From positions 174,220,001 to 174,284,000 of the forward strand of contig OX597815.1 in assembly GCA_951406725.2 (NCBI GenBank): 64,000 bases of DNA, read 5' to 3'. Positions within the stretch are counted from its first letter, which is position 1, and every line of letters begins with the position of its first letter. Positions 31,881 through 58,592 of the stretch are shown here, in pieces. The DNA comes from Octopus vulgaris. Taxonomy: Eukaryota. The notes beneath the pieces are model-generated. The model was not told the DNA's origin and did no database searches. It saw only the letters and a program-made list of their open reading frames with translations. A program made the position numbers and the translations under genes.

Positions 31881-31882
31881 TG

Positions 31883-35976: not shown

Positions 35977-36064
35977 TATTATTATTATTCAGGTCACTGC
36001 CTGGAGTCAAACTTGGAATCTTGGGGTTAGTAGCCCGCGCTCTTAACCACTACGTCATATGCCC
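35977..36064 (-). mobile_element. tRNA-like head of family D element (inverted partial copy)
   Basis: Reverse complement of 36132-36215. Confidence 0.8.
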
Positions 36065-36131
36065 TGTTACCAACTCGTACCCCTGTCACCAGCCTCCTTG
36101 TGGTAGATGTGGTTTCTGTTTCAGTCCCACA

Positions 36132-36375
36132 GGCATATAGCGTAGTAGTTAAGAGCAAGAGCTACTAACCCCAAGAGTCTGAGTTCAATTCCAGGCAGTG
36201 ACTTGAATAATAATAATAACAACAACAATAACATCAAAAAATACCTTAGGAATGAGAACTCAGGTTCAAAATTTTCCCCAGGACACCTGGTAAAGGCTGG
36301 AGGGTATATCAGCTGAAACGTTGCGTTAACAACAAACAAATATCCATCCATCAAATGTAAATAATGTATAATTAT
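36132..36375 (+). mobile_element. Family D: tRNA-headed element with hammerhead-like tail
   Basis: A and B boxes, (AAT)n linker, tail matching both arms of 54439-54844. Confidence 0.8.
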
Positions 36376-36398
36376 TATTATTATTATTTTTTTTTCAG

Positions 36399-36449
36399 TT
36401 CCCCAGTTTTATACACACACAGAAAAGAAACCCAAAAACACATTGTAAG
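36399..36449 (+). CDS. CAT: Catalase exon 5 (FPSFIHTQKRNPKTHCK)
   Basis: TTTCAG acceptor, AAG|GTAAGT donor; 51 nt. Confidence 0.97.
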
Positions 36450-38077
36450 GTAAGTGTTGATCATAAATTCATACCCACTGATTTCAACAAGGGAAAGTGA
36501 CATACTGCCAGAAGTGTTAGAACATTGCAGCATTTGTTCAAGGTCTCTGAGTTTTAATTTCAAATCTTGCTGTAGTCAACTCTGCCTTTTCTTTTAATAA
36601 TTGATAAATAAAATATTAGTCCAGGGCTATGGGTTGGTGGTACTCTTTGAACATCTGACAAGTTGTTATGCAGTATCTGTTCTAGTTATTTGCATTCTGA
36701 ATTCCAACTCATACCCCTGTCACCAGCCTCCTTGTGGTAGATATGGTTTCTGTTTCAGTCCCACAATGGCATAGGGCAAATGTCTTCAACTATAGCCCTG
36801 AGCCTTGTGAGTGGATTAGATTGGGAAAAACTGAAAGAAGTCTGTTGTATATATATACATGTGTTTGTGTGAATGTGTGTATGATTGTGTCTCTTTGTCT
36901 TGATACTGTATGACAGTCATAAATTAGATTCACTGCCATACAACCAGTGCCATCCATTTCCAATATTCTGTCTCACCATGAGAAAATATTACCTTACTAG
37001 GAAACAGGTGAGGATTGGCAACAGGAAGGGCTGTTGAAAATTTGTCTCCATAAACCCTGTCCAGTCCATGCAAGCATAGAAAAGTAAACATTAAAATGAT
37101 GATGAAGAGGAGGAGGAGGATCATCATCATCATCATCATCATCATCCAGGTATGGAGCCCAGGTAACAGTGATAGGCCAACATAGAGATACGTTAAATGG
37201 AGTAACAATTTAGTAGTTATTAGCACTTAAGTGTAATAAACACATGGACAGAGAAACACCAAGTATCTTCAGATATTCCTTCTTCATACAATAACAGGCT
37301 TGAAATGATGGTCTATTTGAGGTAGCATATTTTGACTTTTTTCTACATTATCTTAATTTTGATGAAGCTTAATATAGCTTTTAACTTCTTTATTATCACA
37401 CATATCTCCGTATTTTTATTTATTTCTTTATGAACAAACATGATATTGGTTTTAAAATTTGGAGAATAGATTACTTATGAGTATAATAGCAGTTTGATTA
37501 GAATATTGTGTTAGTGAGTAATAGGTGCTGGTATGGCTATGTGATTGAGAAGCTTGCTTCCCAGCCACATGATCTTAGGTTCAGTTACACTGAGTATCAC
37601 CTTAAGCAAGTGTTTTTACTATAGCCACAGGAAACAAAAGTCTTCTGAATGGATTTGATGAATGGAAACTGAAAGAAGCCCATTGTGTGTGTGTATGTGT
37701 CCTTGCCTAAACACCACAAGATGGTTGTAAATGAGCGTCATCAAGTGAGGTTGTTTGTTTCCAGTCTTCTGTGGAAAATATATCTAGCCAGGGGAAAATA
37801 CTACTTTGCTTAGAAACAGGTGAGGGTTGGCAACAGATAAGGCATCCAAATGTAGAAAATCTACCTCAGCAAGTTCTGCCTGATCCATACGAGCATGGAA
37901 AAGTGGATGTTATATGATGATGATGAGTAATATTCTCTAACTAAATTTACAAAGTTTTATAATATATCAAGATTGATGCTTAGAGGTCATCAAAATTAAA
38001 ATGTTGCCTTCAATAAAACACTTTTCTCTATGGTAAATTATTTTTGTAAACTGAAATATTTTCTTTTTTTTTTTAAG

Positions 38078-38257
38078 GATCCAGATATGTTTTGGGACTT
38101 CATTACTCTGCGGCCTGAAACTACTCATCAAGTATGTTTTCTGTTCTCTGATCGTGGCACACCAGATGGCTATCGCAGAATGAATGGTTATGGAAGTCAT
38201 ACATTTAAGATGGTCAACCAAAACAGTGAAGCTGTCTATTGTAAATTTCACTTTAAA
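38078..38257 (+). CDS. CAT: Catalase exon 6 (DPDMFWDF...YCKFHFK)
   Basis: Within ORF 38030-38275; AAG acceptor after a T tract, AAA|GTAAGT donor; 180 nt. Confidence 0.98.
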
Positions 38258-38344
38258 GTAAGTTTTGATTCTTAGATTTTTATCTGTCATTTCCAGTACA
38301 TCACAATGGCTCTGCTTCTGATCTGAAGCAATACTCTGCTTACC

Positions 38345-38577
38345 TATTTCTTTACTACCCACAAGTGGCTAAACACAGAGGGGACAAACAAGGACAGACA
38401 AATGGATTAAGTCAATTACATTGACCCCAGTGCGTAACTGGTACTTATTTAATCGACCCCAAAAGGATGAAAGGCAAAGTCGACCTCGGCGGAATTTGAA
38501 CTCAGAACGTAGCGGCAGACGAAATACTGCTAAGCATTTTGCCCGACGTGCTAACATTTCTGCCAGCTTGCCACCTT
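38345..38577 (-). mobile_element. SINE family B (young)
   Basis: CpG-rich intact copy; TSD AATACTCTGCWTACC at 38330-38344 and 38578-38592. Confidence 0.9.
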
Positions 38578-41002
38578 AATACTCTGCATACCACTTCCAT
38601 CCAGGCCTACCTGATGCACCCGTTTCTCCTCTTTTTATGACCCTTGCTGTGTCTCACCTCTGCTACACCTTCAGTTATTTCATTTATGCAATCATTCCCC
38701 TCAACTAACTGGAATCCCTGACACCCATGTTTCTTCTAAATGTATCAAAGCTCAACTTGTCAAAGTCTAAACTGAACAGGAACCACATTCTGGGATGGCT
38801 TACAAAGATCATTGATGCTGTCATACTTATAACTAATAAACTTCGAAAATATAAATGAAAATAAAATGCACTGTTATTTTTTTAAAAATATTTTGAATTA
38901 GTTCTAACTTATGCAAACTACAAAACTGTATGTTATTGATTTTTCTTTTTAATAGTGAAATGTCAACTTTTATGATAAGGTGTCAACATTTTTAGAAACT
39001 GCTAGCAGTCATGCATGGGTCAACTATAAAGAGTTAAGATAAAAGAAACAGTTAATAAAAGAGCTTGAGAAAAACAGTAGAATTGATACCAAAAATAATT
39101 AAAATCCATTCATTTTAACGACATTAACTGTTATCTTAGTACAAAATATCTGGGCAACGTCACATGACAGTAATAGTACATAAAATGAAACGGCTACAAA
39201 AGAAATACTTCACAAAAGACAGCCAGCTGTAATTCTTTTTAATATAGCTCAAAAATTCTTCTCAGCATTAATGCAGGAACATATTATGAATGACTAGAAG
39301 ATGAAAGCTATTTATTCACTATATTACAATAAAACAATGAAAGATTTTTAGTAGAATTTCATTAAATATTTAACTAGTTTCAGTTAGCTTTCAGTATTCC
39401 ATTATAGCAAATTTTAAAAGTAAGTTGAAAAGCTTATATATGCAAGGAGTTTAATCTGATTTTCATTGTGAAATAAAAAAAAAACAAAAAAACAATGCAT
39501 ATTTGTAACCTAGAGAACAGAAACTTATTAACAAATAATGATAAACATTTTTTGTTTTACAAGATTTGAATCATTTGATTTATACCAAAATGGGCCATAA
39601 AGCATAAGGAAGAATGAACATCATTAGAATGTGTTAATTATTTTATTTTCATACCTGATTATTTTTGTATATCTCTAATAAAAAATATTCTTAACCTGGA
39701 AACTAAATCATTCACCACTATTTAGGCTTTTACTACCTTTAGCAGAGTCTTTTACAAACATTCAGATTAGATCTCTGGTGTATGTGTAGCTTTCTCCTGC
39801 AGCAACTCATGCATCATAATTTCATATCCTACCCATTTCTTACCATGTTTCTCAGGTGACCCTATAAGGGACATAGGTGTTATCCTTCTCTGTATAAGCC
39901 ATACCAATATTTACAATAAATAAATAAATTTTCATTGTTTTAATGCAATCCATAAATCCATGACAAGATTGATTAAATTTTTATTTCTTCATCAGTTATA
40001 TAAGTGGAGGAGGTGGCCTGAGTCAATTTGAAATTTCAACTCCAGAACAGTGAACTACTAGATCTTTCATTTAGCCTCCTTGCAATGCTATGATCAAGTT
40101 ACTAAAACAATAAGAATGCTAAATCAATTGAGTAATGTATTAAACATATGGTGGACACTGGTAGAAAAGTTTAACTCAAATAAAATATTTCATTTATTTT
40201 CTGTCTATATCTTATGGTTTACATCCAGTTCAAAAGCCTGTTACAATGATGAAATACACCAAACATAGCCATTGAGAAAGCCTCTATCTCATTGTTCACA
40301 GCACTGAAAATAATAGCCAGATTTCCTCAAATCACATTCTTATCATCTCAAGAGACATTAAACAACATAATCCTAAATAACTCTAAAAAGCCTGGATGGT
40401 GAAGGCCAGAATGCTTTTGATCATAGATCTGCTGAATTAGGGCTAACTTGGGGCTAAACAACAATATTTAGACTGCAAGGGAGCCTTTACAGATAGTTTG
40501 ACATGCTAAAATAGCAGCAGAATTTTCTTCAAATTACACTCTACCATCTAGAATAATGTAGTCCTAATATTGAATGTTTAAAAAAAGGATGGGATTAACA
40601 AGGCCTGAACACCTTTCACTATAAATCTAGTTAATCAGGACTGCCCTGGTGCTAACAATGACAACAACCTATCAATAAAACACAACCCCTCCTTATTTTG
40701 TGTGGTACCACACTGTAATATTATTTCCAACTGTCTGATTCACTGATATTACCTTCATTACAGGCCGAGATACTTTTCTCATTGGAGAGATGTACCAAAT
40801 TTTGAACAACTATTCAATGATGCAACTTTAAATTTACTATTCTATGTCAACTGTGTTAATAATTGCTTGAAATTCATGTAAACTACCCAGTCATTTAGTA
40901 ATTAGTAAGAATCAAATTTTCATATAAATGCTATTATTACATTTTGAATTGTGCAATGTTCAAATGAAATCTTTTTTATATCTATTTCTACAGATTTAAA
41001 AA

Positions 41003-41039
<37 letters not shown>

Positions 41040-41399
41040 TCATTGCTTCTTATTGGTTGGTTGTAAAATATTTCAATGTACGACAGTCTGATATCGTCTT
41101 TTCCTAGCATCTTTGACTTTTTTTTCTGACATTCTCCATAGGAAAATGTCATGAGTGGCACCAAATTATCTTCGTCATGACATGTATTTAAATATAATTA
41201 GATGGCAAATTTGTTCTTCATTCTCAGCATTTATTATCTAATTTTTAAGGCTGAAAGCAATTTTATATACAAAATGTAATATATACATATAATTAATTTT
41301 AATGATTTCCAAGTTATTTTAATGCCATTTATTAAATCTAAGTTACTGTTTAATAGTTTCAACTTCTTGAAATTTTATTTTATATTTCATTGGTTATTA

Positions 41400-42256
41400 T
41401 TGTGTTGAGTCAAAAGTTTTGCAATATTTTGGTTATTTATTTGCTTTATTCAAGTTACAACAAAAGCAGTCTAGAAGTCAAAGGTGAGGCCATCATGTTG
41501 CACTATTGAAGTCATCTTTCTGCCAGTTCTTTGACCCCTTGCTGATACCAGTTCTTGTCCTTCTAGGCAAAGAACTCCTTCACTGAAGCTTCCACCTCCT
41601 CTTGGCTAATGAAAAAGTGAGCCATGGATCAGAGCAAGTGACAGTCTGAAGGAGATAATTTTCTGCAATCTTAACATGCATATGCTGTGGTTAAGCAAGT
41701 GTTAGCTTCCAGAACCTATCACCAAACATGGATATTTCAAACACAGGGTGAGCTCTGCATCTGGTGGAATTATGAGGGGATAATTCACTATGAGTTCATT
41801 CCAGACAGGCAAACCATTAATACCAATCTGTACTCCAAACAGCTGCAGCAGATATATATACCATTGTGCAGCAAAAATACCTGGCATTGGTTAACAGAAA
41901 GCAAGCTCTACTGCAGCATGACAACACAAGACCTCCTACCACTCAAGCAACCCAAAATAAACTCCAGAAATTTCAAGGAATTGAATTGATGCTACACCCA
42001 GCATACAGTCCAGACCTAGCTCCTTCAGATTACTTGTTCTGATCTATGGCTCACATCCTGCACTCACAACACTTCACCAACCAAGAGGAGGTGAAAGCTT
42101 CAGTGAAGGGCAAGAACTGATATCGGTGTGGGATCAAAGAACTGGCAGAAGGCGGCTTCCAACAGAGCAACATAATGGCCTCTACTTTGAATGCATGGTT
42201 GCTTTTGTTGTAACTTGAAGTTACCAAAATATTGCAAAACTATTGATTCAGCATAA
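41400..42256 (+). mobile_element. Mariner derivative made of two inverted 3' ends
   Basis: TA-flanked TIRs; peptides LCIWWNYEGIIHYE and HPAYSPDLAPSDY; 41400-41655 is the reverse complement of about 42018-42256. Confidence 0.85.
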
Positions 42257-42351
42257 TATTTCTTTTATAAATTAGTTCAGATTGAATAATTGAATATCAT
42301 TGTTCTTATACTCTTCCTTTTTCATTTATCCAAATTACCAAACTATATTAG

Positions 42352-42543
42352 ACAAATCAAGGTATAAAGAATTTAATGGCTGATAAAGCAGCCGGGCTGT
42401 CTGCAAGTGACCCAGATTATGCCATCAGAGACTTACACAATGCAATTGAGAATAGTAATTTCCCTTCATGGACTCTGTACATTCAAGTGATGACATTTAA
42501 AGAAGCTGAAAACTTCCGATGGAACCCATTTGATTTAACTAAA
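42352..42543 (+). CDS. CAT: Catalase exon 7 (TNQGIKNL...WNPFDLTK)
   Basis: TTAG acceptor, AAA|GTAAGG donor; 192 nt. Confidence 0.98.
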
Positions 42544-42758
42544 GTAAGGAATTTTCTTTGCCTATATATCACTGTTTCTGAAAATTTCCTCCTGGAATAT
42601 TTTTTTTATTAATCTCTGAATTTATTTTTTACAAAGATTTTCTTCTGTTGAGAATACTAGTATGAGTCAGCTCTAAACTTTAGTTATATTAATGTTTATT
42701 TATTGAAAAAGACCATAAACAATACAATAAACTTTCATGTACAATTAAGTTCCATTAA

Positions 42759-42957
42759 CCCTTTAGCATTTAAACCGGCCATACCCAGCCAAAATATTCT
42801 ATGCATTTTATGTTCAAACAAACCAGATCCAGTTTCTCACACCTACCCTGCAATTTCATTCTAAAAATCTCAAAGCTACAAGATAATGCATGATTAATTC
42901 AAAGCCATGTGAATAAATAAGCATTACTTTTGATAGAATAATGTGAATGCTAAAAGG
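42759..42957. mobile_element. TTAA-type MITE family 2
   Basis: TTAA|CCCTTTAGCATT...AATGCTAAAAGG|TTAA. Confidence 0.82.
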
Positions 42958-43107
42958 TTAAAATATTTTCCAGTAGTTCTGCAGACCTGATTATCTGACA
43001 CATTTTTGTGTTTTGTCAATTTATTTTCACCTAAATACCATCACTGGTTGCCAACATTATTCCAGTGCTCCTAGTTTGTAACTTACATATCTACTTACTT
43101 ATCCATT

Positions 43108-43330
43108 GTGGAGGCTCATGGCCTATTGGTTAGAGTGTTGCACTCATGATCACAATATTATGGGTTCGATTCCCAGACTGAGTGGTGCATTGTGTTCTTG
43201 AGCAAAATACTTCATCTCAAGTTGCTCAGCAATCGCTCTGGCATTTGACATATAGCATGCCATGCACCTGTAAAGGTAAAACTGATTTGATGGAGGGAGT
43301 GAGCTTATGTGCAGCACAAACATTTAATCA
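43108..43330 (+). mobile_element. Family A-related SINE
   Basis: tRNA-like head plus TGTGTTCTTGAGCAAAATACTTCA. Confidence 0.65.
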
Positions 43331-43799
43331 CTACAAACAAATGATCTGTGCAGGTTGTTCAGGAAGAAATTGCAAAATCATATTTCCTGGATCAATAGAC
43401 TATCATTAAAATACTGTCCATACATGAGAGAAAATATATTTCAAAGTTATTAAGGGTAGCCAATGGTTACCCTTATTAACTTTGTGAAGTGTAAAAAGAA
43501 AGTATGTAATTTTCATATTGTACTGTGAAATTAAAATAGTAGAGTGCTTGAAAAGAGGTAAAATTCAGAACAATTGTGTGTGAATATAACATAGATCCTT
43601 AGACAATTTATGACATTAAGAAATAAAAGGACAAATTAATTTCTGTGTTTGGCTGATTCAGAGATAAGTAAAGATGTTGCTGTGCGGCAAAAACATCAAA
43701 GGTTTCAGAATTAGGTACAATGTTATTTCAATGATTTTGTGCAAATTGATCCAAGGGAATGCTATTAATTCTTTTGTTTTGTTTTCATGAATAATTTAG

Positions 43800-43952
43800 A
43801 TCTGGCCCCATAGTGAGTTTCCACTAATACCTGTTGGACGCATGGTTCTTGACACCAATCCCAAAAATTATTTTGCTGAAGTTGAACAGATTGCTTTCTC
43901 ACCTGCACATATGATTCCAGGAATTGAACCAAGCCCAGATAAAATGTTACAA
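43800..43952 (+). CDS. CAT: Catalase exon 8 ([13 protein letters not shown]...PSPDKMLQ)
   Basis: TTTAG acceptor, CAA|GTAAGT donor; 153 nt. Confidence 0.98.
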
Positions 43953-45292
43953 GTAAGTAGCCTCCATTAAGAAGATGCAACTTCTCTCAGAGAATTTTGA
44001 AGTGTTTTTTATGTCAAGCAAATAAAGAATAACCATATATATATATATATAACTTTGTCTTACTATGCTCCACTATTGTAAAAGAAAAAAGACCCAGTTT
44101 TTAGTGTTTAGAAAGCCAAAAGGATGCAATTACTACTTATTAACCATTTTCATAATGACCAGATATAGTTTCACTATTAAACCGCTATGATGTATATAGT
44201 TGCTGCATAAAGAAAGACTGAGAGTCCAGGGATAATTTATCTGAGACATGGGCAACCATTTTTGAGAAACAAGCTGCATGAGACATGACTTAGTATCAGC
44301 CAGGCCACGCTACTGAAACAATTCAAGGTAATTTTTTGTTGGCATGCCATTCAGAAAGTCCTGCAGGATGCAGCTTGCCCATAGCTGGTTTATACTTTCT
44401 TGTTATGTTGACTAAGAAAAACTGTATTATATGGTAATGATATTTTCCTATGGCGGTTTTAGTTTTAAACCTTAAACTTTCTCTTAGGTTATATTATTTT
44501 ATTTGGCTTTTCTCTGAGTAAGGTAGAATATAATGATTCAACGTCACTTATACTAAAGTGTTATCATTATACCTAAAACCCTAACTACAGTTATAACGTC
44601 ATAGAGACATATACGCATGAAACACTATGAATATTAACGACATGTATGTTAAATATTTTTTTGTGTCCTTTAAACTGCTATAAGAAAACATAATCAAGGA
44701 TTACAGAAATGCATACTTATTTATGCTCAGTTGAAAAATAAATGTGAAGAGAAACATTTTCTTTTAATTAGTTTTATTATATAAATATAACATTTTATAT
44801 TATTTACAGTAGGAAAGATAACTTTGTCGTGAAGAAGAACGACTATAATTTCATTAACTAATTTCTCAATTCTAGCTAATACATTAACCAACAAATCAAA
44901 ATAGACTTGTCATTAACTTAGACATGGCATAAAAATTACCAATGTCTCAAAAGAGTGAGTGTTGTGGAGTTCAGTGACATCCAACAAACACTGAAATTTT
45001 GCCCAAAATCCAGAGTTTTTATAGCTGCTCAACTTGACTAAAAAGAATCGAAATCCATGACAAATATTCTTTACAAAACTTTTAGAATCTTTATATGAGC
45101 AGTTATATTAACCAATAGAAAAAAAACGAAAATGATAATTCTTCGGCAAAGACATTACGTCATATTGCCAATTCGCGCCACATTTCAAAATGGCTAAAAT
45201 GGTTATTGCTACAATATTAAAAGAAGCTAGGAACAAAAATGATGTCATTCGCTTCCAACTGAGTTAATGTCAGAGAACAAGAATTCGTCTTA

Positions 45293-45421
45293 AAATAATA
45301 ATAATAATGAAATTATTGTATACAGTGCTCAGGTGCACCACAACTTGTCAAAAGTGCGTATAAAGCATATGCACTAATGTCTGGAAAGTGAACATTGTAT
45401 GAGTCAGATACATGCTTGCAT
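45293..45421 (-). mobile_element. 3' UTR and tail only of the CR1/L2-like family
   Basis: Matches 7613-7740. Confidence 0.8.
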
Positions 45422-46032
45422 CACTTGTCTTTAATTCTATTCTTTTTACATCTTTAGAAGACTGGATAAATTAACTGATTAAAGAGTAGTTTTTCAACAA
45501 CTATTTTATTTGCGATATGATAAGGACTAAATACTACTTGTATGGATAGCAATAACGTCAATCTTCCCCATTTTTTCATAATTACATTTCCAATGAAATA
45601 AAAATTACTTTTACAATACAAGACCAATATGTTTAAATTTTCTACTAAAATATGTTAACTTCATTAGTCTATATTTAAGAAAAGTAATTTAGTGGGAATA
45701 TATATGTTGATTGGATTTTTCAACATTTGTGTCATTATAACTAAATAACTAATTTCAAATGTTATGTGATGTATTTGGAATTTTCATTCTCCATTTACTA
45801 TATTTTGATCAAAGCCAAATTATATATGTATTCTTCTTTAATTTGATTATCTGCAATATTCTCTTATTTTCAATTTTTAAAAACAATTTATTCTATCATG
45901 TTTAAATTCATATAATGTGTGTGTGTGTATATATATATAGTTCTGTTTTATATATATATATCGTTCTGTTTTATTTAATTTTATATAAAATTATGTATGT
46001 AATTCAATACTTTTTTTATCACATCATTAAAG

Positions 46033-46171
46033 GGTCGCCTGTATTCCTACTCTGATACCCATCGGCATCGCTTAGGTTCTAACTATCTCCAGCTACCAGT
46101 CAATTGTCCTTTTAGAAGCCGTTTAGCCAACTATCAAAGGGACGGACCTCAGTGTGTAACTGACAACCAAG
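46033..46171 (+). CDS. CAT: Catalase exon 9 ([15 protein letters not shown]...GPQCVTDNQ), proximal heme Tyr
   Basis: Heme-ligand signature RLYSYSDTH; 139 nt. The frame-preserving 3' end is followed by non-canonical TTAAGT. Confidence 0.95.
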
Positions 46172-46244
46172 TTAAGTAATTTCATATCTTAACTAATATT
46201 ATTATTATCATTATTATTACTATTATTATTAATAAAAGAAATAA

Positions 46245-46460
46245 AGTGGCAAGCTAGCAGAATCGTCAGCATGCCGGGTGAAATGTTTAGTATTTCATCT
46301 GCCATTACGTTCTGAGTTCAAATTCCGCCAAGGTCAACTTTGCCTTTCATTCTTTCAGGGTCGATAAATTAAGTACCAGTTGCATACTGGGGTCAATGTG
46401 ATCAACTTTATCCCTTCCCCAAATTTGAGGCCTTGTGCTTCCAGTAGAAAGGATTATTAA
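46245..46460 (+). mobile_element. SINE family B
   Basis: Intact core motif. Confidence 0.85.
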
Positions 46461-47039
46461 TAAAAGAAATCACTATTATTATTATGACTATTTCAAGGGT
46501 TGTAGATTGACAGAATACTTTGTGGTATTTGTTCTGGCTCTTTACATTGTGAGTTCAAATCTTGCCATTGTCAACTTTGCCTTTCATCTCTCTGGGGTCC
46601 ATAAAATAAAGTACCAGCCAAGTACTCCTCTTAAGTCTGAAGTCTTATGTCTATGCTAGAAACAATTATTTTGACTATTGTGTGTGTGTGTGTGTTTAAG
46701 ATGTTTGTGATATGTGTGTAGAATATACAAATTTTATATTATCAATGTAGCTACTTATTATATGACAAGACAGTGTGCATAAATGGAAAGCTGAAAAATT
46801 AATGAAATGATTGATTTAGTAATTAAATGTAATGCCTAATTGAAAACCAATATTTGAAATGGGTTAAATTTGCAAACAGCTATTGAGGTGAAAAAAAACA
46901 CACTTTTATTTCAAAAATAATTAAAATGTGAATCAAATATAAATAAAATACTTTTGAGAAAAAAGCTTACTTGAAATTTGTAATACATCATAATCATTGT
47001 TCATTGATTCTGTCAAATGTCTCTTTAAAAAGTCATTAA

Positions 47040-47252
47040 GCCTTTAGCATTCAAATAACTCTGTCAAAGGCAATGCTTGTTTATTCACATTGTTTAGAAT
47101 TAATCATGTGTTATCTCATAGTTTCAAAATTTAGATGTGATTGTTCATTTTTATAATGACATTGTAGGTATGAGAGGCAAGATCTAAGCAATTTGGACGC
47201 AAAATGGGTTAGAATATTTAGGCCTGATATGGTCAGTTTAAATGCTAAAGGG
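47040..47252. mobile_element. TTAA-type MITE family 2
   Basis: Same orientation as the 33112 copy. Confidence 0.72.
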
Positions 47253-47630
47253 TCAGAGTTCTACCAGTAAGATGTTTTTAGAAGTTTCTAGATGGAGTCC
47301 ATTTTTCTCTAGCCTGAATCTTTGAGCCCTTTGATAATAGTAGATTTTTTATAGGGCTCCTAGATAATAAGATATAGATATTTATAAATAGCCTTCTATC
47401 TCAATATTAACAACTTAATAATAGCATTTCTCTTTTCTCCAAAGGCTGATTTATTAATTTATTTATGCCACACTATTGGCAAATAAACTCTGTTCGTTTT
47501 TTTTTTTTGTTTCAAGCCTAACAGATGGAGTGTGTAGGGTAAAATCAAAATTGAACTACCTTTCTGTTAAAATATGAAGACATTAGAAGGGAATGATGTT
47601 GACTGTCTCAACCAAAAAATATTAAGTACT

Positions 47631-48123
47631 TCCGAGACCTCTGAGATATGCTGTGACTGTGAAGACCTGACAAATGAAGTGAGTTCATGGCTAACCTTGG
47701 ATTGTAGAGTGACCTGCTGTTCTTGAGGAGACCTATTGAGTCAAGTACACCAACACCAACATCAAAATAAAAATCAAATGGAAATTGTAGTTAAGATACC
47801 CATGCCAGTGACACGTAAAAAGCACCATCCGAATGTGGCTGATGCCAGCGCCACCTTACTGGCGTCCTTGTCGGTGACACGTAAAAAGCACCAACCAATC
47901 ATGGCTGTTTGCCAGCCTCGTCTGGCCTCTGCGCCGGTGGCATGTAAAAAGCACCCACTACACTCACAGAGTGGTTGACATTAAGAAGGGCATCCAGCTG
48001 TAGAAACACTGCCAGATCAGACTGGAGCCTGGTGCAGCTTCCTGGCTTCCCAGACCCCAGTCGGACTGTCCAACCCATGCTAGCATGGAAAACGGACATT
48101 AAACGATGATGATGATGATGATG
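47631..48123 (+). mobile_element. 5'-truncated copy of the RTE family at 19840
   Basis: Starts in the last ORF codons (matches 20240-20292); has tandem UTR units and a (GAT)n tail. Confidence 0.85.
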
Positions 48124-48606
48124 CTTGACTTGAATGATCTAATGAGGATCTTATGTTTTTCTGGTGTACATTATAATTATAGTTATGAAAGAAACTTGTG
48201 TATGTGTGTGTATTTGTATCTCCTTTTCTTGACATTGTGTGATTGTTATAAATAAATGTCAGTTGTTTCCAATAAGTCTATGAGAACATATCTATGGGGA
48301 AATATTACCTTACTTGGAAACAGGTAAGAGTTAGCAAAAGGGAGGACATCTTGTCATAGAAAATCTCAGTAAGCTCCACTTAAGGCATGCAAGCATGGAA
48401 AAGTGGACATTAAAACAATGAGGATGATGGTGGATTGTCTTAATGTAATCTGTTCACTTCATCTCAATTAAAATCAGTTCTAAGTACACTGATATGTGTT
48501 CTATTGTACACACTGTAGTTTTCAGTAAATGTTTCTACAGACAAAGCTTTAAAACTTAATTTACAATATTTATATATGAAAATCAATTCATTGTTTATTT
48601 ACACAG

Positions 48607-48758
48607 GAGGAACTCCCAATTATTACCCTAACAGTTTTTCTGGCCCTGTTGATGATATTCAATACGTGGAGAAGCCATTTTTAGCGTCTGGAGATGTTCA
48701 GCGTTACAATACTCAAGACACTGACAACTATTCTCAAGTTGGAACATTTTGGCTGAAG
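48607..48758 (+). CDS. CAT: Catalase exon 10 (GGTPNYYPNSFSGP...QVGTFWLK)
   Basis: ACACAG acceptor (phase 1), AAG|GTTAGT donor; 152 nt. Confidence 0.96.
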
Positions 48759-50632
48759 GTTAGTCACATATATATTAAAGAAAATAGCAAAATAAAAACA
48801 ATGAAATTAAAATATTATAGTACATACGCTAAGATAATACCACTAATTTTAGGTTTCCATAGAGTGAAGTAGAAATTATTAATTCAAACTACTTATAAAC
48901 AAAGTATAAACAAGGTGGTATGATAATTGTCAAAACAAAAATGTTTCTTCAAATTTAAGTTTTGTTTGTATAGAGCTATTGGTTTAAAGTTGGTTATCTT
49001 ATCATTGTTATCTCTAATATGGATCTAGATTGTTTGAAATAACACCAGAAAAAAAATTAGAGCACTTGATGTTTGTTTATTTAATTATCTATTTATTTGT
49101 TTATTTTGTTTATTGTCTCAGAGACATTAAACTGGGACTAGAAAATGACTTGAAATTAAGGATGGCAGTAACTGACTGCAAAAAAAAAGAAAAAAACGCT
49201 AATGGCAGTGTAAATATGCTGTAAAAGCTAATGAGAACTGGGTGAATAAATGTCACAGTGGCATGAGTTAACAGAAACAGAGGTGAAGTAATAAATATTT
49301 ATAACAAGCATATTAAGGCTGACCCAAAAAACAGCTAAAGAGAACTGACCTTCAATGAAGCAATGTGAAGAAATGCTATCACTCATACTTGTCTAGACCA
49401 TGACAGCTAAAAAGGATAATTGTCATCGTCATCATCATAATCATCATCAACTTCATCATCTTCATCATCATCCATTTTAGAGTCATCTTCTATGTTGGCA
49501 GGCATTGGATTTCCATTTACATTTTTAATATTTTACTTTTTATCTCTGCTTGCATCAATGAGTGGCTTCTGCAAATACATTTTTTCCCCTTATGAATTGG
49601 TAAAGGACAAACTTTAAAGCTGGATTTCTTTCATAAATGCCAATCTTTGGCTTTACATAAGAATTTTATCTATTTTCCAGTTACATTGCTTAAGACAAGG
49701 AAATAAGGAAATACCTTTTGCAGAGTTTGAGTTATGACCTTTAGTACATTAGTCCAGCATTTGAACAATTTAATAATTTGATTATGATTATAATATTTCT
49801 GAACTTAAAATTACCACTGATACTGAGTACACATTCTTTACTAATAACTGGTGACAAATGAATTGTTTTGATGGAATTTGAGCTCAGGCTCTTTCTAGTC
49901 TCGGTTCAAATTTCACAGAGGATCAACTTTGCCTTTCATCCTTTCAAAATCAATAAAATCTGTACCAGTTGAGGAATGGGGTCATTGTAATTGACTAACC
50001 TCCTTTCTCTGAAATTTCAGGCCATGTACCTATGGTATAGAGAATTATTATTAAAAATAGCCAAAGTTTCATAAATTTCTTTCAACCACAATTAATGCTA
50101 TTCATTATACAAGGGCAGCATATTGGCTGAATCATTAGAACATCACACTATATTTCTTCCAGCTCTATATGTCCTGAGTTAAATCTTGCCAAAGTCAACT
50201 TTGCCTTTCATTTATTTATCTACTTTATTTTGGCCAATAAAATAGAGTACCAACCAAATACTGAGAGTGCTTTAATTGGCTAATGTCACCTGCACTGAAA
50301 AAGAAAAAAAATTGTAGCCCTGTGCCTTCATTAGGAACAGTTCTGCTATGACTTCTGATTACAGAAATAAATGAACTTACCAAAGGAGCAAAGCTGGAAA
50401 CTGATAAAGCACTAATATTTTTTGTAAGCTATATTAGTATCCTTAGTACAATATATAATCTCACTCACTACGGATATCTCTTTCAGGATTAAGTTATTAT
50501 TTAAAGACTAAGCAAAGTTATGGTCTTTGAGTTCCAGAGTACAAAGATACAAGCTTAGAAAAATCTTGACCACCTAACAACATGATTCTTTACAGAATAT
50601 GGGATTCATTGTGTTACTGCTTCAAGCACTTC

Positions 50633-50752
50633 TATTCATTCATTCGTTTGTTCGTTCGTTCATTCATTCATTCATACATACATACATACATACATACATA
50701 CATACATACATACATACATACATACATACATGCATGTTCACGTGTGTGTGTG
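50633..50752. repeat. (ATTC)n/(ATAC)n microsatellite
   Basis: Directly visible. Confidence 0.92.
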
Positions 50753-50759
50753 TCCTTTA

Positions 50760-50965
50760 GCTTTTATCTTTTACTTGTTTCAGTCATTGGACTGCAACCA
50801 TGCTGGGGCACCCCCATAAAGACATTTTGTCAATCAAATTGATACCAGTACTTATCTTTTTGAGTCTGGTACTTATTCTATCAGTCTTTTTGCCAAACCC
50901 CTAAGTTACAAGGATGTAAACACGTCAACATCAACCAGTAGTGGGGGACAAGCACAGATACAAAG

Positions 50966-51011
<46 letters not shown>

Positions 51012-51128
51012 CTGCCAACAAGGCTTTGGTCAGCTCAAGGCTTTAGTAAGAGAAACTTGCCCAAGGTGCCATGCAGTGGGACAGAACCTGGAACCATGTG
51101 ACGGAGAAGCAAATTTTTTACCACACAT
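50760..51128 (-). mobile_element. CORE-type SINE family C (diverged)
   Basis: Reverse match, including ACTTGCCCAAGGTGCCA. Confidence 0.75.
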
Positions 51129-53110
51129 AATGTGCATGTGTATGTGTGTATATATGTTGGCTTGCCAATAACAATAACATTCTCTGAATGACCTACCAGT
51201 TATAACTCTTTTATTATTTCCTTTTTCCTATTTGAAATGAAGAATTTTTTTCCCAGAATTCTATAGGATCATTAAACAACCTATGTAAGGGAACACAGTA
51301 TCTTTTCTCTTTATTTTCATTCTTTGACGTTACACACTTTTCCTGACTCTTCACCTCCATTGCTCAAAGGTCTTTTCAAACATTTATCCTTACACACACA
51401 CACACACTATATATATATATATATATATAGAAAGAGAGAGAGAGAGAGAGAGAAAGAGAAGTTGGGGGAGAAATTCAATATTACATGTTCACTTTAGTCT
51501 ACGTTTCCCAATGTCCGCCTGAATACATCTGTCAAAAACTTTTCTCTAAATCAAATCAACTAAATAATTGCTTGCTTTGTTTCTGCTTCACTCAGTATTG
51601 CATAAATAGCTCTGGAATGTTGTATCTGAATTATTTGTCTAGGATATGATCTCAGATGCACTGGCTGTACTTATTATAATCTATATTTCAGCTTCAGTAT
51701 TTAATCTCTGAAATTTATATAGATTCTCTTTCCTTGTACATAAACCTTACTTTTGTTACATTTGAAAATAGTTAAGGCTGCATTTTTTTTTCTTCTTCTA
51801 ATAAGTTAGTCAGAGGAAAAGGGCCAATGTTTATGACCATTCCAGACTGGTGTGATCGACAATGATGTTCAACCTCAAATATTTGTTGTTCAATGTTAGC
51901 AGAAAAAAACGAAAAGAAAAAAACCAAGCTTAGGTGGGTGAAGGAATTTCAGAGATTTTTAGGGAAGAAAGACTGAAAGACTGGATGAAGAGTTTAGGAT
52001 GAGACACTGTGTTGTTGATAGATGGAGAAGAGACAAGCAGGTTGGGTGGACCTTTGTGGAGAGGATATCATCAAGGATGACAATTTTCATATGTTATCTG
52101 GCCTATTATTTCTATTATTTCTTAAAAGTCTTGTTTTTTGTTTGTTTAGTTTTTTTTTAATATTTTATATAATTATTCAGTCTTACTGATATTACTATGA
52201 TCCAATGGTCCATATTGTTGGTAATTGGGTTGTGTGACATATTCTCATTTTTGTAGTTATTCTGTTCCATTATTCCTGCTAAAATTTGTAGCTGTTTTGT
52301 CTCTAATAGAAATCTCTATTATTAAATTGAATTCAAATTCTACAAAATCTGTAGTACCTTTTAGTCTAATAGTAGAGACCAATAAAATAGAAACTAGTCA
52401 GACTTTTAACTAAATCTATTGTTTCCTCTCTGCTTGTGAAATATACTGACTATGTGTTTCCTTTCATTTTGAAAATATACCAGAATTTGGAAAGATTCAT
52501 TGAAATAACTAAATCTATCATTATTAATCTGGTGTTTATAGCAAAACTTGATAAATTGTTAATGAAAGCTTTTAATTTAAATATGAACACTTTCACACCA
52601 TAAGTTTTAAGTCATCGAAATCAAGAGCAGTTTCAGCTGGTACATAAAGCATTAAACCATGAGCTACCCCATTCTTAATGTTAAAAAAGGGATTGTCAAA
52701 TTTTTAAAATATCAAGCAAAGACATTTAGAATCATTCTATCAACTTATAGAGAAGAAATGGGTTACCAGAAAAATACATTCTTGAATAAAGCTTACAGCC
52801 ACAATTAGGCATAAAGTAGATGTTGAATTAAACATCATGTTACTACTGCTTAATATAAGGGTCTGTCTGAAGAAATTCAGAAATTCTGCAGCATATTCAA
52901 TATTAAAAATAACACTACACTTTAACAAATCCCTTATCAAAGTTACACCTATCCAAGAATGGCTAAATTTTAAAAAATTCATCTCTAAAATCATGTTCAT
53001 TTGCACTAAGACCTATAAGTGTGAAATTAGGCAACCTCTGAAGCTCAGATTATAGAGATAAAAGAAAGCCTTAATGAAAAATGAAACATCTTGGTCAGGA
53101 ATGGCAGAAC

Positions 53111-53142
<32 letters not shown>

Positions 53143-53238
53143 TATTAGAATTTTCTCTGACTCCTCAGATTTTTGTATGCTGGACTACTGGTTTTAAATT
53201 GATATTAAAATTAATATTAATTTATCTCCCTCATTATT

Positions 53239-53279
<41 letters not shown>

Positions 53280-53820
53280 CACAAGCAAGGAAATTACATC
53301 CATCATTAAAGGAAATTCATATAGATCTACAGGAGAAACTTAGATAAGTCAGAGAAGCTATATTACTATAGTCTAGAAATAAAGTTTTCTATTTTGAATT
53401 CACACTGGCACTTATCCAAAAATAAAGCATTTAGTGACGGTCAGAGATGTGAATATTGAAAAATCTTTCATCTCCAGAGGCAAATTTTATAGTCTGGGAA
53501 ATGATCTTTAAAAATATAACACACTTTTGTCTTTAATGAGCACAAACCTTTACAAAATAATTAATATGTGTTCATAACTAAAGAAATTACCAACAAGATA
53601 GCATAACTTCATATGATATTGATAAATAAGGGAGATTACCTCTTACAGAAATGTTGATTTCATTTTTCTCTTTCTTCAATCACTTTTATTCTTTTTTTTT
53701 TATTATTGGAGAACTTAGTTGCTATTTCTGAGTTTCATGTAATATATTTTATCTATAGAACAACTAGATGTACAGTCAATGATTGCAACAGTTAAAAAAA
53801 TTTTCTGAAATTATTTTTAG

Positions 53821-53988
53821 GTATTGTCATCAGCTGAACGTGAAAGACTTGTGGAGAACATTGCTAATCATTTGATTGATGCCCAAGAGTTTATTCAAAA
53901 GCGTGCTGTGTACAATTTTGGACAAGTGAATTCAGAATTTGGCCATAAGCTACAAGCCAAACTGGACAGTTTGAAGTCTTCGAAATAT
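53821..53988 (+). CDS. CAT: Catalase exon 11 (VLSSAERERLVENIANHL...LKSSKY)
   Basis: TTTTAG acceptor; catalase C-terminal helical domain; TAT|GTAAGT donor; 168 nt. Confidence 0.94.
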
Positions 53989-54514
53989 GTAAGTAAAACT
54001 GAAAAACAATTGTTTTTACTTCCAAAATCAAATATTTGTAAATAGTGAGAAACAGTTTCTTTGTGTATTTTAAAGTGAGTGGGCTGTACTTGGAAATGAT
54101 TGTTGGAATTATACTGTGTAACATGATTTTTGTCCTTGAGTAGTAACTGTTATTTTTTATTTGCTTACCCCTAGAAAGTATAAAAAATGACTGTTTCCCT
54201 CAAACTCCAAAGAATCACTCTCAACTTATGGCTATAATGCTCTGCCACTACTCCTGCGATGTACATATTGTCAGCCACTTAGAAACAAGCTTAAGTGGTT
54301 ATGGTCAAATAACTGACAAGCAAATCAATGGTATTGAGCAGAATATTTGCTATAACAGTATTTCTGCTCCAGTAACTCAGGCTGAATCTGTCTGAAATGT
54401 AATGAAAAATAGGTCAGTTTCTAAACATTAATGTCCAGCTCTATATTTAAGAGACGAGGAATTATGTACATTATTTACATTTGACGGATATTTGTCCTCA
54501 TCTTGTTTGTTGTT

Positions 54515-54560
54515 AACACAATGTTTCAGCTGATATACCCTCCAGCCTTCATCAGATGTC
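54515..54560 (-). ncRNA. Minimal type I hammerhead-like motif
   Basis: Minus strand reads GACAT-CTGATGA-A-GGCTG(gagggtatat)CAGCT-GAAAC-ATT-GTGTT. Confidence 0.55.
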
Positions 54561-54754
54561 TTGGAGAAATTTTGAACATGGGTTCTCATTCCTAAGGTAT
54601 TTTTCTATGTTATTATTATTATTTAGGTCACTGCCTGGAATTGAACTCGGAATCTTGGGGTTAGTAGCCTGCACTCTTAACCACTACGCTATATGACCTG
54701 AATAATAATAATAATAACATTGAAAAGTACCTTACCAGGTTCAAAATTTCCCAA

Positions 54755-54797
54755 GACACCTGATGAAGGCTGGAGGGTATATCAGCTGAAACGTGTT
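54755..54797 (+). ncRNA. Minimal type I hammerhead-like motif
   Basis: GACAC-CTGATGA-A-GGCTG(gagggtatat)CAGCT-GAAAC-GTGTT; 3 nt are missing at the predicted cleavage site. Confidence 0.5.
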
Positions 54798-54895
54798 AAC
54801 AACAAACAAGACGAGGATAAATATCTGTCAAGTGTAAATAAAGTATTAATGTCCAGGTCACAAAAGCAAAGTTTGAAGGGAATAGTAGTAATTTC

Positions 54896-55736
54896 GGATC
54901 TTTTCCTTTTGATGGACAGAATTTTCTAGTTAACTAAACAATTTGAAACTTCGTATACTGGTAGAATGTGTCAAAAGAAAACATTATTGTAAACAAAATT
55001 GAAAACAAAATTGTAATTTGTAAGTTTAACGTAGTTTAATTCTTCGAATTTTAACCAATGAAATCCCAGCATTTGAGCTCAAATCATTTGCTGCGTCTAA
55101 AAACTCACACGTCTTATTCATCCTTCTGTCTTCTGCATGTGCTAGAAATAACAGCTATATCTCTTAAATCGATGAATTTCATCGCCCAATAAAAATATTA
55201 ACGATATTTTTTGAATATTTTCTTTATTTTTTTTTTACCGGAAAGGCTTCTCCCATGGTTTTGAAGGGCCAGAAAAAACAAAACAATAATATGCCTAAAT
55301 CGGTGTAGAGGGTGCGCGTGGAGTGTGGGTCGTATTGTAAAAATTTGCGAAATATTTTTTCATAAAAGGATGCCCCAGCTTGTCGGAAGCTGTGTTATAA
55401 ATTTGGAAAAAAATCCTCGACACCAGTGCGTAATTGGTACTTAATTTATCGACCCCGAAACGATGAAACATTGCCTTTTGTGTAAATTTGTTGCAGCAAG
55501 GGGCAAAACACACAGGGGACAAAGCATGAGATTAAGTCAATTCTATCAACACTAGTGCCAACTCACGAACGTGTATGTATGCCTGTATGCGTATGTGTGT
55601 GTATGTATATCTCCATTTGTATGTGTGTGTACGCTTATATATTAATTACTATGTGCTTGTGCAAATGTATATGCATGTGTTTGAGAGAGAGATAGTGACA
55701 GAGAGTGTGTGCAAGTGTACGTGTGTATGTATCTGA

Positions 55737-55779
<43 letters not shown>

Positions 55780-56018
55780 CGGCTTGCGTCTGCTATGTTT
55801 CTTTATCAATATCGATAATGCAGCAAATGATTTGAGCTCAAATGCTGGGATTTCATTGGTTAAAATTCAAAGAATTAAACTATGTTAAACTTACAAATTA
55901 CAATTTTGTTTTCAATTTTGTTTACAATAATGTTTTCTTTTGACACATTCTACCAGTATACGAAGTTTCAAATTGTTTAGTTAACTAGAAAATTCCGTCC
56001 ATCAAAAGGAAAAGATCT
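54896..56018. mobile_element. Non-autonomous DNA transposon with about 200-bp near-perfect TIRs
   Basis: 54897-55094 is the reverse complement of 55820-56017 with only a few mismatches; flanking direct repeat GTAATTTC(G). Confidence 0.9.
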
Positions 56019-57922
56019 GTAATTTCGTTTGATTTCTAGATAGAAATAAATAGGAAATAACACTTAAAGACAAAAAAAAAATTTTAATCGTGTTACACAG
56101 TATTATTTGCCTGTGATAAAAAAAAACATAGTTTATAGTACTTTGTTAAGTCCCTTTATGTTATGAGTTTAAACCTTGCTATGATTATTTTTGCTCCTCT
56201 CCAGACATAGCCAGATTTACAGGGATGGCAAAGGTGTTATTGCCTTGGATCCCCCCCCCCTGGTCAGTGCCCCGCCCCCACACTGACAATACCCCCCCCC
56301 CCAATATTCAGAGCTCCTTTCTACAAAGGATATGGTGCACTCAATACAGAGGGCCCACTCCACTTACCAGCAATCTTGCATGAAGAGGCTACCTTTCAAA
56401 TTACAAAGATCTGTATTGCTTAAAAAACGTAATGGATTCTCTATAATGATAAATAACTGAAGATTTCCTCAACTTTAGTGACAATAGTTCGAATTACGAA
56501 AAAAAAGCAAAAGGAAAACAGATTTTTCTACTTTAGCAGCACCAGTCCCCAAAAGCGTGTGTGTGTCCCCTAAAAAAAGCATGGTACCAGTGAAACTAAG
56601 TAAAACACATGTATGTATGTATGAATGAATGTTTATATATATGAATGTGTGTGTGTATGTATATGTCCATGTGTGTGTGTGTGTGAATGTATATATAAAA
56701 AGAAATAAACTGAAAAAGACTTTTGTCTCTAGTTCAAGTTCGGTTTCAGACATCAGTCTCCAAGAGCAGCATGGTGCCAACAAAGCAACAAAAAGTAAAA
56801 AACATGTATGTATGTATGTAGGTGTGTGTATGTGTGTGTATGAATGTATATAGAGAAATAGACTGAAAAATCTAGTTTAATTCCCGTTTCCATCACAACT
56901 GACCAATGATGACCTCAAACTGACTGTTTCCAAATAAAGGAACACACATGCATGCACACACTCACATGCACACACACACACACACACACACTCACACATA
57001 TATTAACACTGCTAATTTCAGTAAGTCTTCGAAATCTCCCTAACAGGTAAGTACAAAATATGTTCCAAAATTTAGATTTTGATTTTTGTTTTAATTATAA
57101 AATTACATCTATCAACAGCTCAAAGCACTTCTTTTTTTATTTTTTAAATCTAACCATTTTCTTGAGACAAAATAATTAACTAGGGCAAAATGAGTAATTT
57201 CTGATCTTTTGTTATTTTTTTTCCTTACTAGTTTGAAAACATTTTATTGTATTTTACATTCTGAAACATTTTCAACTCTCATTTAAAAAAAAAAGTCTCT
57301 TTTCTCTCCTTTATTGAATTTTCACAATGAAGAAAAAGCCAAACACTGCAGGTGCATGAGTGGAAAATGAAATTAGAATTTTGAAAAGGAAAGAGACATT
57401 TTTAGTCATTTAAAAATGTATAAAAAGAATATTTTTTTATTGAAGAAATGTATAATGGGATAAAAAATATCACTTGTTCTCCTTTTTGTACCATATAAAA
57501 GCAGTTTGTCACAGAAGCACCTTATTTCAAGTAAAATTAAATTTGAGGGAAATTATATCAGGTAAAGTAGAAATGAATGTATTATGTCATGCATAAAAAT
57601 AAAATTCTTACAGTGTGGCAAAACTATGAAAATGACAGGGAACAGGGCTTTAAGAGTGCCATATAAATAACATTTTAGATATTTTTTGGAATTTTCAGAC
57701 AATTTTTGCAATTTTTTGGAATTTCCAGACAATTTTTGCAAATTTGTATCTACACATGGGACTTCATACGATTAAGCAAAAAAACAAAAAGTTGTGGGTA
57801 TACGTGATTTAAGGCCTATTTAGCTGTTATTTTTAGCACACCTCACGACCACCTCAATGACAAAAAACAAAACAAGTAAACTATACATATTTTATAGTTT
57901 TAAGTAGTCAATATACATTTAA

Positions 57923-58142
57923 CCCTTTTGTTACTGTATTTATTTTCAGATGCTTCATGTTTCTTTCAGTTACTTTAAATATAACAAAGAATTTAGTAAA
58001 ATAACTTAGTTATCATTCAGCTTGTGTTTGGAACATAAATTGTGGCTATGGTTTGGTGGAAGATTTTAATTCAAAACTTATGAAAACAAGATATTTATAC
58101 TCAGAGTCAGAGCTGGTTTCAGCCAGGCTGGTAATGACAGGG
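57923..58142. mobile_element. TTAA-flanked MITE family 1
   Basis: TTAA TSD; similar to 14126-14347. Confidence 0.8.
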
Positions 58143-58592
58143 TTAATGCAATAAACAGCACATTACAAATTAAATATTTCTAAAAAAACAAACATCTCCA
58201 ATGTCAACTGGATAATGGAGCAAGTCCTCCGTATGAATATAGGACAACCACCAGCCCCTTACCTAGGACAAAATGATTTTTTTCTTTTTACTTGTTGCAG
58301 TTATTAGACTGCGGCCAGCCATACTGGGGCACCACCTTGAAGAATGTTTAGATGACTGTATGGAACCCAACATTTTTTTTAAGCCAAGTCAAAACCACCT
58401 CAGTGATATATTTTTTTTTGTTTTTTTTTTTGTGTGTGATTTTTTCTTTGTATTTGTTAAATCATTAGATTGCAGTGATGCTGAGGGCACTGCCTTGAAG
58501 AACTTTCAGTCAAATATATCAACCCCAAATTTTTTTGAAAATTACTATTTATAAATCTCACAACATGAGATATTCAGCAACAGTACTTTGTA

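What the first reader, a model, noticed from the sequence alone, without database searches (positions are those of the whole stretch)
46165..48612. Catalase intron 9 needs a non-canonical TT donor
Seen: exon 10 acceptors (CAG 48606 or GAG 48609) require phase 1, and homology (NQ-G-G-xPNY, 139-nt exon) puts the donor after 46171, where the sequence is CAAG|TTAAGT. That is a perfect GTAAGT except at +1. The nearby GTs at 46171 (phase 0) and 46176 (phase 2) frameshift, and the phase-1 GT at 46154 makes TGA. The same mRNA could formally come from a GT..CA intron (46171-48605). All other exons are intact, so the gene looks functional. Inference: a rare TT-AG intron in a core antioxidant gene, a splice-defective allele, or a base-call error. 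A-to-I editing cannot fix a T.
Basis: partly seen in the sequence, partly recalled or inferred. Interest (0 to 1): 0.75.

Follow-up and report, generated by a model that had tools for sequence, protein, structure and literature searches.

The report
Octopus catalase uses a TT donor
One intron of the octopus's only catalase gene starts with TT instead of the near-universal GT, yet the assembled transcripts join the flanking exons correctly, so the ordinary splicing machinery likely cuts at this rule-breaking signal, as it is reported to do in a few human genes.

Summary
Confirmed. Intron 9 (46172-48606) of the single 12-exon catalase gene of this Octopus genome begins AAG|TTAAGTAA; the other 10 introns are GT-AG. 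It is not a base-call error: an independent DNA run carries the same letters at depth 42. It is not a dead allele: 3 of 3 transcript-type runs, one from that same sample, join 46171 straight to 48607, giving a 512-aa catalase, 511/512 identical to O. sinensis RefSeq. An O. bimaculoides gene model that detours around the site implies T there too (inferred). Other animals have G here (8 of 8 read-through ORFs). Best reading: a U2-type TT-AG intron like human FBXO9 and ETV1, whose donors it matches almost letter for letter, read by standard U1/U6 (no suppressor U1 among 42 copies). Not excluded: the same mRNA made in two GT-AG steps through a one-base G exon (four candidate sites, not enriched). 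It is a known kind, rare in invertebrates, and I did not find it in print for octopus. It explains four broken public gene models. The scan's earlier notes held no such case.

The parts
9417..63958 (+). Catalase gene, 12 coding exons (9417-9473, 29956-30127, 32864-32974, 35196-35326, 36399-36449, 38078-38257, 42352-42543, 43800-43952, 46033-46171, 48607-48758, 53821-53988, 63926-63958), 512 aa; single copy in G000
   Evidence: open frame, 511/512 to P0019; one match each for exon 9 and exon 10 in the genome
46033..46171 (+). Exon 9, 139 nt, ends in phase 1
   Evidence: contigs of X9, X10, X18 fit exactly 46033-46171, with exon 8 before and exon 10 behind (checked)
46169..46179 (+). Non-canonical donor AAG|TTAAGTAA: T at +1 (46172), G at -1, second GT at +5/+6; 8 of 11 Watson-Crick pairs to the genome's U1 5' end
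   Evidence: (X3 identical)
46172..48606 (+). Intron 9, 2435 nt, TT..AG, phase 1
48587..48606 (+). Ordinary U2-type acceptor: T-rich tract ending in CAG
   Evidence: transcript contigs resume at 48607
48607..48758 (+). Exon 10
46076..46077 (+). Cryptic in-frame GT in exon 9 used by public model P0015 (480 aa); not seen in the laid contigs
   Evidence: (route identical to P0015)
46359..46359 (+). Best-looking AG|G|GT site (others at 46498, 47251, 47538): candidate one-base exon of the rival route; lies in a dispersed repeat
47525..47529 (+). 5-nt AG..GT-flanked piece (a second at 47292-47296) that, with GT 46176, yields the residues QVKWRG of the O. bimaculoides model P0020; an annotation detour, absent from the transcript contigs

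Best explanation
The single octopus catalase gene has TT at the start of intron 9 and its assembled transcripts join exon 9 directly to exon 10, so the major spliceosome likely removes it in one step as a TT-AG intron. The intron position is old and began with G in other animals; a G-to-T change at +1 likely became fixed in Octopus. Standard U1 is predicted to bind in the normal register with 8 of 11 pairs and only a U-C mismatch at +1. The AGT at +4 to +6 would let U6 set the cut before the first T, not at the GT one base upstream. A minor leak to that upstream GT is predicted from human reporters and would give a frameshifted, likely NMD-degraded mRNA. Shown: genomic T, correct junction in the dominant contigs, single gene copy, standard U1 and U6. 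Inferred: cut register, one-step removal, fixation across the genus, leak.
For: DNA: X3 (organism B), one contig, depth 41.9, 0 other letters across 45960-46188. RNA: X10 (same sample S3 as X3), X9 and X18 each give one spliced contig (depth 218, 347, 83) whose next 30 letters after 46171 equal 48607-48636. One genomic match each for exon 9 and exon 10. O. bimaculoides model P0020 reads QVKWRG at the junction, which is what T at +1 plus a 5-nt detour gives in this window. 8 of the 22 hits read through this intron position, and all 8 have Gly, i.e. G at +1; three more named fish models show the same (P0060, P0089, P0128/P0132). U1 duplex -5.5 kcal/mol, inside the range of the gene's ten GT donors (-5.0 to -12.5). 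40 of 42 U1 matches have the standard 5' end, two are degenerate, none is compensatory; 8 of 8 U6 loci fetched, of 48 matches, have the standard ACAGAGA box. Human FBXO9 (aAG|TTAAGTAT) and ETV1 (aAG|TTAAGTtg) are natural TT donors; in reporters accurate +1 use needed the second GT at +5/+6 (PMC6280755 section 6). ETV1 is constitutive and RT-PCR validated (PMC4176328).
Against: Only assembled contigs were available: they drop minor forms and may collapse a heterozygous site, and they cannot tell TT..AG from GT..CA, AG..AC or a one-base exon route. 2 of 4 DNA runs gave no cover of the donor. In X16 (organism E) one difference near the 3' end of the laid piece (about 46166-46188) is unplaced and could be a G at 46172, so conservation beyond the closest relatives rests on one protein model. 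In curated Drosophila annotation the donor G is invariant among about 60,000 introns (PMC4528330), so the prior for an invertebrate TT donor is low. In human reporters close variants also cut at -1. 'RNA' is the tool's guess for X9 and X18 and X10 is listed as DNA?; I take them as transcripts because their contigs lack introns 8 and 9.
Confidence: 0.85

Rival explanations
1. Two canonical steps: the GT at 46171 is the donor, the missing G is supplied by a one-base exon (or recursive site) at an internal AG|G|GT, and a second GT-AG intron follows. The mature mRNA is identical.
For: Four such sites give the exact 512-aa product (46359, 46498, 47251, 47538), and 46359 has a good pyrimidine tract. 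GTTAAGT is the kind of donor read by shifted U1 pairing (motif recalled from Roca and Krainer 2009, not held; only seen cited). A one-base exon is proven in Arabidopsis APC11 (PMC4674806, abstract).
Against: 4 sites seen against 1.7 expected from the gene's other ten introns; the best one lies in a dispersed repeat where the same five letters occur in 6 of 17 copies examined. No intermediate contig in 3 runs (weak, contigs drop rare forms). The -1 register puts AAG instead of AGT at +4 to +6. The human sites with the same donor are cut at +1 in reporters.
Confidence: 0.05
2. One step in a shifted register: GT..CA (46171-48605) or AG..AC (46170-48604).
For: Both give the same mRNA. GT..CA keeps a canonical donor dinucleotide.
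Against: It would skip a perfect CAG one base away. U1 pairs 8 of 11 in the TT register and 5 of 11 in the GT register, and the energy model re-pairs the -1 site into the same helix. GT-CA is not among the curated Drosophila classes.
Confidence: 0.03
3. T is a segregating, partly defective allele, and the good mRNA comes from a G allele hidden by haploid assembly and collapsed contigs.
For: Contigs drop variants (tool note); no raw reads were offered; X16 is unresolved.
Against: The window, X3 (another organism label) and, by inference, O. bimaculoides would all have had to keep the T path; a damaging polymorphism shared across species is unlikely.
Confidence: 0.04
4. Base-call error, or a second catalase copy with a normal donor that makes the mRNA.
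For: None found.
Against: X3 has T at depth 41.9. One genomic match for each of two exons. X9 and X10 contigs match exon 9 with 0 other letters.
Confidence: 0.02

Closest known systems
Human natural TT-AG U2-type introns of FBXO9 and ETV1 (Parada et al. 2014, PMC4176328: passages and supplement rows; Erkelenz et al. 2018, PMC6280755: abstract, introduction, section 6, discussion part 1)
   Same: Donor core AAG|TTAAGT with G at -1 and a second GT at +5/+6 (FBXO9 differs only at +8); normal AG acceptor; the dominant junction; breaks aligners and gene models.
   Different: A mollusc, in the only copy of a housekeeping enzyme; no lariat or reporter evidence; the -1 leak is unmeasured; independent origin (inferred).
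Mutant TT donors: human FANCC c.165+1G>T (as described in PMC6280755) and C. elegans unc-73(e936) (PMC6140464, passages)
   Same: G-to-T at +1 of an old GT donor, with competition from nearby cryptic GTs.
   Different: Those are damaging alleles with low or altered correct splicing; here the correct join is the dominant form and appears to be wild type in at least two organisms.
Atypical 5' splice sites read by shifted U1 pairing (Roca and Krainer 2009; paper not held, seen only as cited; motif recalled)
   Same: GTTAAGT string that pairs best with U1 one base downstream of the GT.
   Different: There the cut is before the G; here a cut before G46171 frameshifts unless a G is supplied elsewhere.
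Single-nucleotide exon of Arabidopsis APC11 (PMC4674806, abstract)
   Same: A one-base gap between cDNA and canonical splice signals can be closed by such an exon; candidate sites exist here.
   Different: No enrichment, no intermediate seen, conservation untested; the base is already present at the exon 9 end.

Membership tests
U2-type TT-AG intron (ETV1/FBXO9 kind) | Genomic TT at +1/+2, not an error | tested here: met
   Window and run X3, 0 other letters; X16 unresolved; X2 and X6 no cover
U2-type TT-AG intron (ETV1/FBXO9 kind) | Transcripts join the exons in the register that leaves TT..AG | tested here: met
   3 of 3 transcript-type runs; sequence-equivalent registers cannot be separated
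U2-type TT-AG intron (ETV1/FBXO9 kind) | Otherwise U2-like donor: G at -1, AAGT at +3 to +6, high U1 complementarity | tested here: met
   8 of 11 pairs, -5.5 kcal/mol; pattern as in PMC6280755 section 6
U2-type TT-AG intron (ETV1/FBXO9 kind) | Canonical AG acceptor with pyrimidine tract | tested here: met
   48587-48606
U2-type TT-AG intron (ETV1/FBXO9 kind) | Lariat begins at the T; removal depends on U1/U6 in one step | not testable with these tools
   Needs lariat RT-PCR, nascent RNA or a minigene
U2-type TT-AG intron (ETV1/FBXO9 kind) | Partial leak to the -1 GT | tested here: inconclusive
   One contig per run, no minor form listed, but contigs drop rare variants
Donor read by a compensating variant U1 | A U1 gene with a changed base opposite +1 | tested here: not met
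   0 of 42 U1 matches; 40 standard, 2 degenerate; the count is a lower bound
U12-type intron | ATCCT-type donor at +3 onward (consensus recalled) | tested here: not met
   Donor reads AAGTAA from +3
Atypical 5' splice site with shifted U1 register | Cut before the G of GTTAAGT gives the functional mRNA | tested here: not met
   Direct join from 46170 gives a 420-aa frameshift; contigs keep the G; survives only with a one-base exon
Single-nucleotide exon (APC11 kind) | AG|N|GT site that supplies the needed base | tested here: met
   Four sites, but 1.7 expected by the gene's own background
Single-nucleotide exon (APC11 kind) | Site is required, conserved, or seen as an intermediate | tested here: inconclusive
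Haem catalase (Pfam PF00199 + PF06628) | Full-length open frame with both domains | tested here: met
   512 aa, 511/512 to O. sinensis RefSeq catalase P0019; domains as precomputed for the cluster representative P0002

The most novel reading that the evidence does not exclude
The intron is removed in two ordinary GT-AG steps, and a single G, taken from inside the intron (best candidate in a dispersed repeat at 46359), completes the glycine codon: a one-base exon in an animal nuclear gene that rescued a donor mutation in an essential enzyme. If so, some reported TT-AG introns elsewhere could hide the same route.
Probability: 0.05. Interest if true: 0.78.

Novelty: new member of a known kind. 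Interest (0 to 1): 0.42.

Why it matters
The +1 G is among the most fixed letters of splicing: curated Drosophila annotation has no exception (PMC4528330), and most human GT-to-TT changes disrupt splicing (PMC6280755). A wild-type TT donor giving the dominant mRNA of a single-copy antioxidant gene in a mollusc suggests that tolerance of the G|TTAAGT context is a general property of the animal spliceosome and can become fixed in evolution. It offers a natural comparison for what makes human +1G>T disease alleles leaky or silent. The competing -1 GT would give a stop 244 nt before the last junction, a possible but untested dial on catalase level. In practice it explains why three O. vulgaris models (480, 397, 374 aa) and one O. 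bimaculoides model are wrong at this spot; the right protein is 512 aa.

Tried and rejected
Base-call error, hidden paralogue or retrocopy, and sequence-changing micro-exon or alternative acceptor routes: rejected. Suppressor U1: none in 42 matches. RNA editing: not needed, the contigs match exon 9 letter for letter in X9 and X10. No RNA holder was listed on record as RNA and no raw reads were offered, so allele counts and minor isoforms could not be measured. Runs X2 and X6 gave no cover of the donor; this is no evidence either way. I laid 7 of the 24 listed runs (X16 twice). The second lay was designed to place X16's unlisted difference and narrowed it only to about the last 23 bases before 46188. 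Searching for exon-9 read-through ORFs of other octopods found none. The search with the read-through model found no further cephalopod detour models among the best 120 of 270 hits; cuttlefish P0048 and the similar unnamed P0046 have the normal junction, which says nothing on their donor. T content behind the donor is the highest of 11 donors (0.55 against 0.20-0.50), but part of it is a TAT repeat, so I do not count it as an enhancer. My first gene model had two exon edges wrong; its phases and lengths were discarded and redone, and only its register and U1-pairing tables are used. Literature: octopus + non-canonical splice + catalase gave 0 papers; searches showed no cephalopod TT donor in their listings. 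Frey and Pucker (PMC7072748; passages and supplement rows) count 23 TT...AG among about 110,750 annotated O. bimaculoides introns, no more than AA...AG (29), CA...AG (26) or TA...AG (22). These are unvalidated counts without gene names, so octopus shows no general TT excess, and this intron may be among the 23. One supplement file of PMC4176328 could not be searched and FlyBase File S4 was not read. Earlier scan notes held nothing on this.

Full report
What is there. The window holds a whole catalase gene of 12 coding exons from 9417 to 63958. Joined at homology-defined edges it gives an open 512-aa frame, 511/512 identical to RefSeq Octopus sinensis catalase and 489/512 to O. bimaculoides. 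Three public models named O. vulgaris (P0015-P0017) equal splice routes computed from this window letter for letter, so the window is O. vulgaris-type DNA. Exon 9 and exon 10 each match once in the 2.8-Gb genome: no paralogue or retrocopy was found. Ten introns are GT-AG; intron 9 (46172-48606, phase 1) begins TTAAGTAA behind AAG.

Is the T real? Four DNA-type runs were laid on 45960-46260. X3 (organism B) gave one contig at depth 41.9 with 0 other letters from 45960 to 46188. X2 and X6 gave no cover of the donor, which the tool says can be a filter effect. X16 (organism E) covers it with 4 other letters, 3 of them listed. A second lay on 46020-46188 showed 3 other letters, 2 listed, so the third lies near the 3' end, about 46166-46188, and could be 46172; this stays open. 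Indirect evidence reaches further. The O. bimaculoides model P0020 reads QVKWRG where cDNA- and RefSeq-type sequences read QGG. In this window exactly those residues arise from the GT at 46176 plus a 5-nt piece at 47292 or 47525, and the valine needs T at +1. I infer that O. bimaculoides also has T there. In other animals the same intron starts with G: 8 of the 22 hits read through this position and all 8 have glycine, as do three further named fish models. So the T is derived.

Is the gene spliced correctly? Three runs whose contigs lack introns 8 and 9 (X10, X9, X18; depths 218, 347, 83) each gave one contig that fits 46033-46171 and continues with 30 letters identical to 48607-48636. X10 comes from the same sample as X3. 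No micro-exon, cryptic donor or skipped form appeared, though contigs show only dominant forms, and the RNA label is the tool's guess (X10 is listed as DNA?). The canonical alternatives on paper all change the protein: cuts after 46170 or 46175 frameshift (420, 404 aa), internal GTs delete part of exon 9 (466, 480, 495 aa), and an upstream AG adds 29 residues. The three O. vulgaris public models are the cryptic-GT, read-through and exon-skip routes; whether they are real minor RNAs or predictor detours cannot be told here.

How it most likely works. The genome's U1 is standard: 40 of 42 matches begin with the usual 5' end, two are degenerate, none compensates. The 8 U6 loci fetched, of 48 matches, have the usual ACAGAGA box. 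In the normal register the site forms 8 of 11 pairs with U1, against 5 for the GT one base upstream, with a predicted -5.5 kcal/mol, inside the range of the gene's GT donors. It has AGT at +4 to +6, as six of the ten GT donors do. This is the context in which human TT donors work: FBXO9 aAG|TTAAGTAT and ETV1 aAG|TTAAGTtg. In reporters, accurate +1 cutting needed the GT at +5/+6 and less than full U1 pairing; FBXO9 was cut at both -1 and +1 and ETV1 only at +1 (PMC6280755). ETV1 is a constitutive, RT-PCR-validated TT-AG junction, and FBXO9 has over 2,000 supporting reads (PMC4176328). I therefore put 0.85 on one-step removal as a U2-type TT-AG intron. A small -1 leak is predicted; its stop would lie 244 nt before the last junction and would likely trigger NMD (general knowledge, untested here).

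Rivals. The mature mRNA cannot separate TT..AG from GT..CA or AG..AC; these would need a non-AG acceptor beside a perfect CAG (0.03). More interesting is an all-canonical two-step route: cut before G46171, then take one G from an internal AG|G|GT. Four sites give the identical mRNA, and one-base exons exist in plants (PMC4674806, abstract). But 1.7 sites are expected from the other introns, the best site lies in a repeat where 6 of 17 examined copies have the same letters, and no intermediate was seen (0.05). A hidden G allele (0.04) would need the T path kept in the window, in X3 and in O. bimaculoides. Error or paralogue (0.02) is contradicted directly.

Comparison and novelty. It works like, and on every feature testable here belongs to, the small class of natural TT-AG U2-type introns. 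It is not U12-type and not a shifted-register GT site in the strict sense. Curated Drosophila models have no donor without G among about 60,000 introns (PMC4528330); the invertebrate case I found in the papers read is a mutant worm allele (PMC6140464). A survey of annotations counts 23 TT...AG introns in O. bimaculoides, no more than other odd pairs and without names or validation (PMC7072748 supplement), so octopus is not generally TT-rich and this intron may already sit unnamed in that count. Searches found no paper on this site; most subscription journals are not searched. Verdict: real and well supported, a new member of a known kind, interest 0.42.

Noticed in passing
P0002 (named O. vulgaris cDNA protein) against the window gene: Differs at 26 of 512 residues, more than O. 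bimaculoides does (23) and far more than O. sinensis (1), so that label likely covers another lineage.
   Followed up: no
window 46033-46171, run X18: Labelled organism A like X9 but has 2 other letters in exon 9, one shared with organism E (46056); perhaps mixed lineages under one label.
   Followed up: no
G000:C18:48.97-49.21 Mb: 26 of the 42 U1 matches form one cluster in both orientations.
   Followed up: partly
G000:C1:139423726-139428422: Five U6 matches with equal scores about 1.0-1.4 kb apart.
   Followed up: no
window 60844-62073: Open frames in intron 11 that look like a decayed hAT-type transposase (resemblance recalled, not searched).
   Followed up: no
window 41675-42039: Open frames in intron 6 that look like a mariner-type transposase remnant (resemblance recalled, not searched).
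   Followed up: no
window 63926-63958: The last coding exon has only 10 codons, after a 9.9-kb intron, and ends in SNL, resembling a peroxisomal import signal variant (recalled).
   Followed up: no
window 46335-46385 and 11 more window copies: A common dispersed repeat carries a pyrimidine tract followed in many copies by CAG-G-GT, i.e. a ready-made acceptor-donor overlap in introns.
   Followed up: partly
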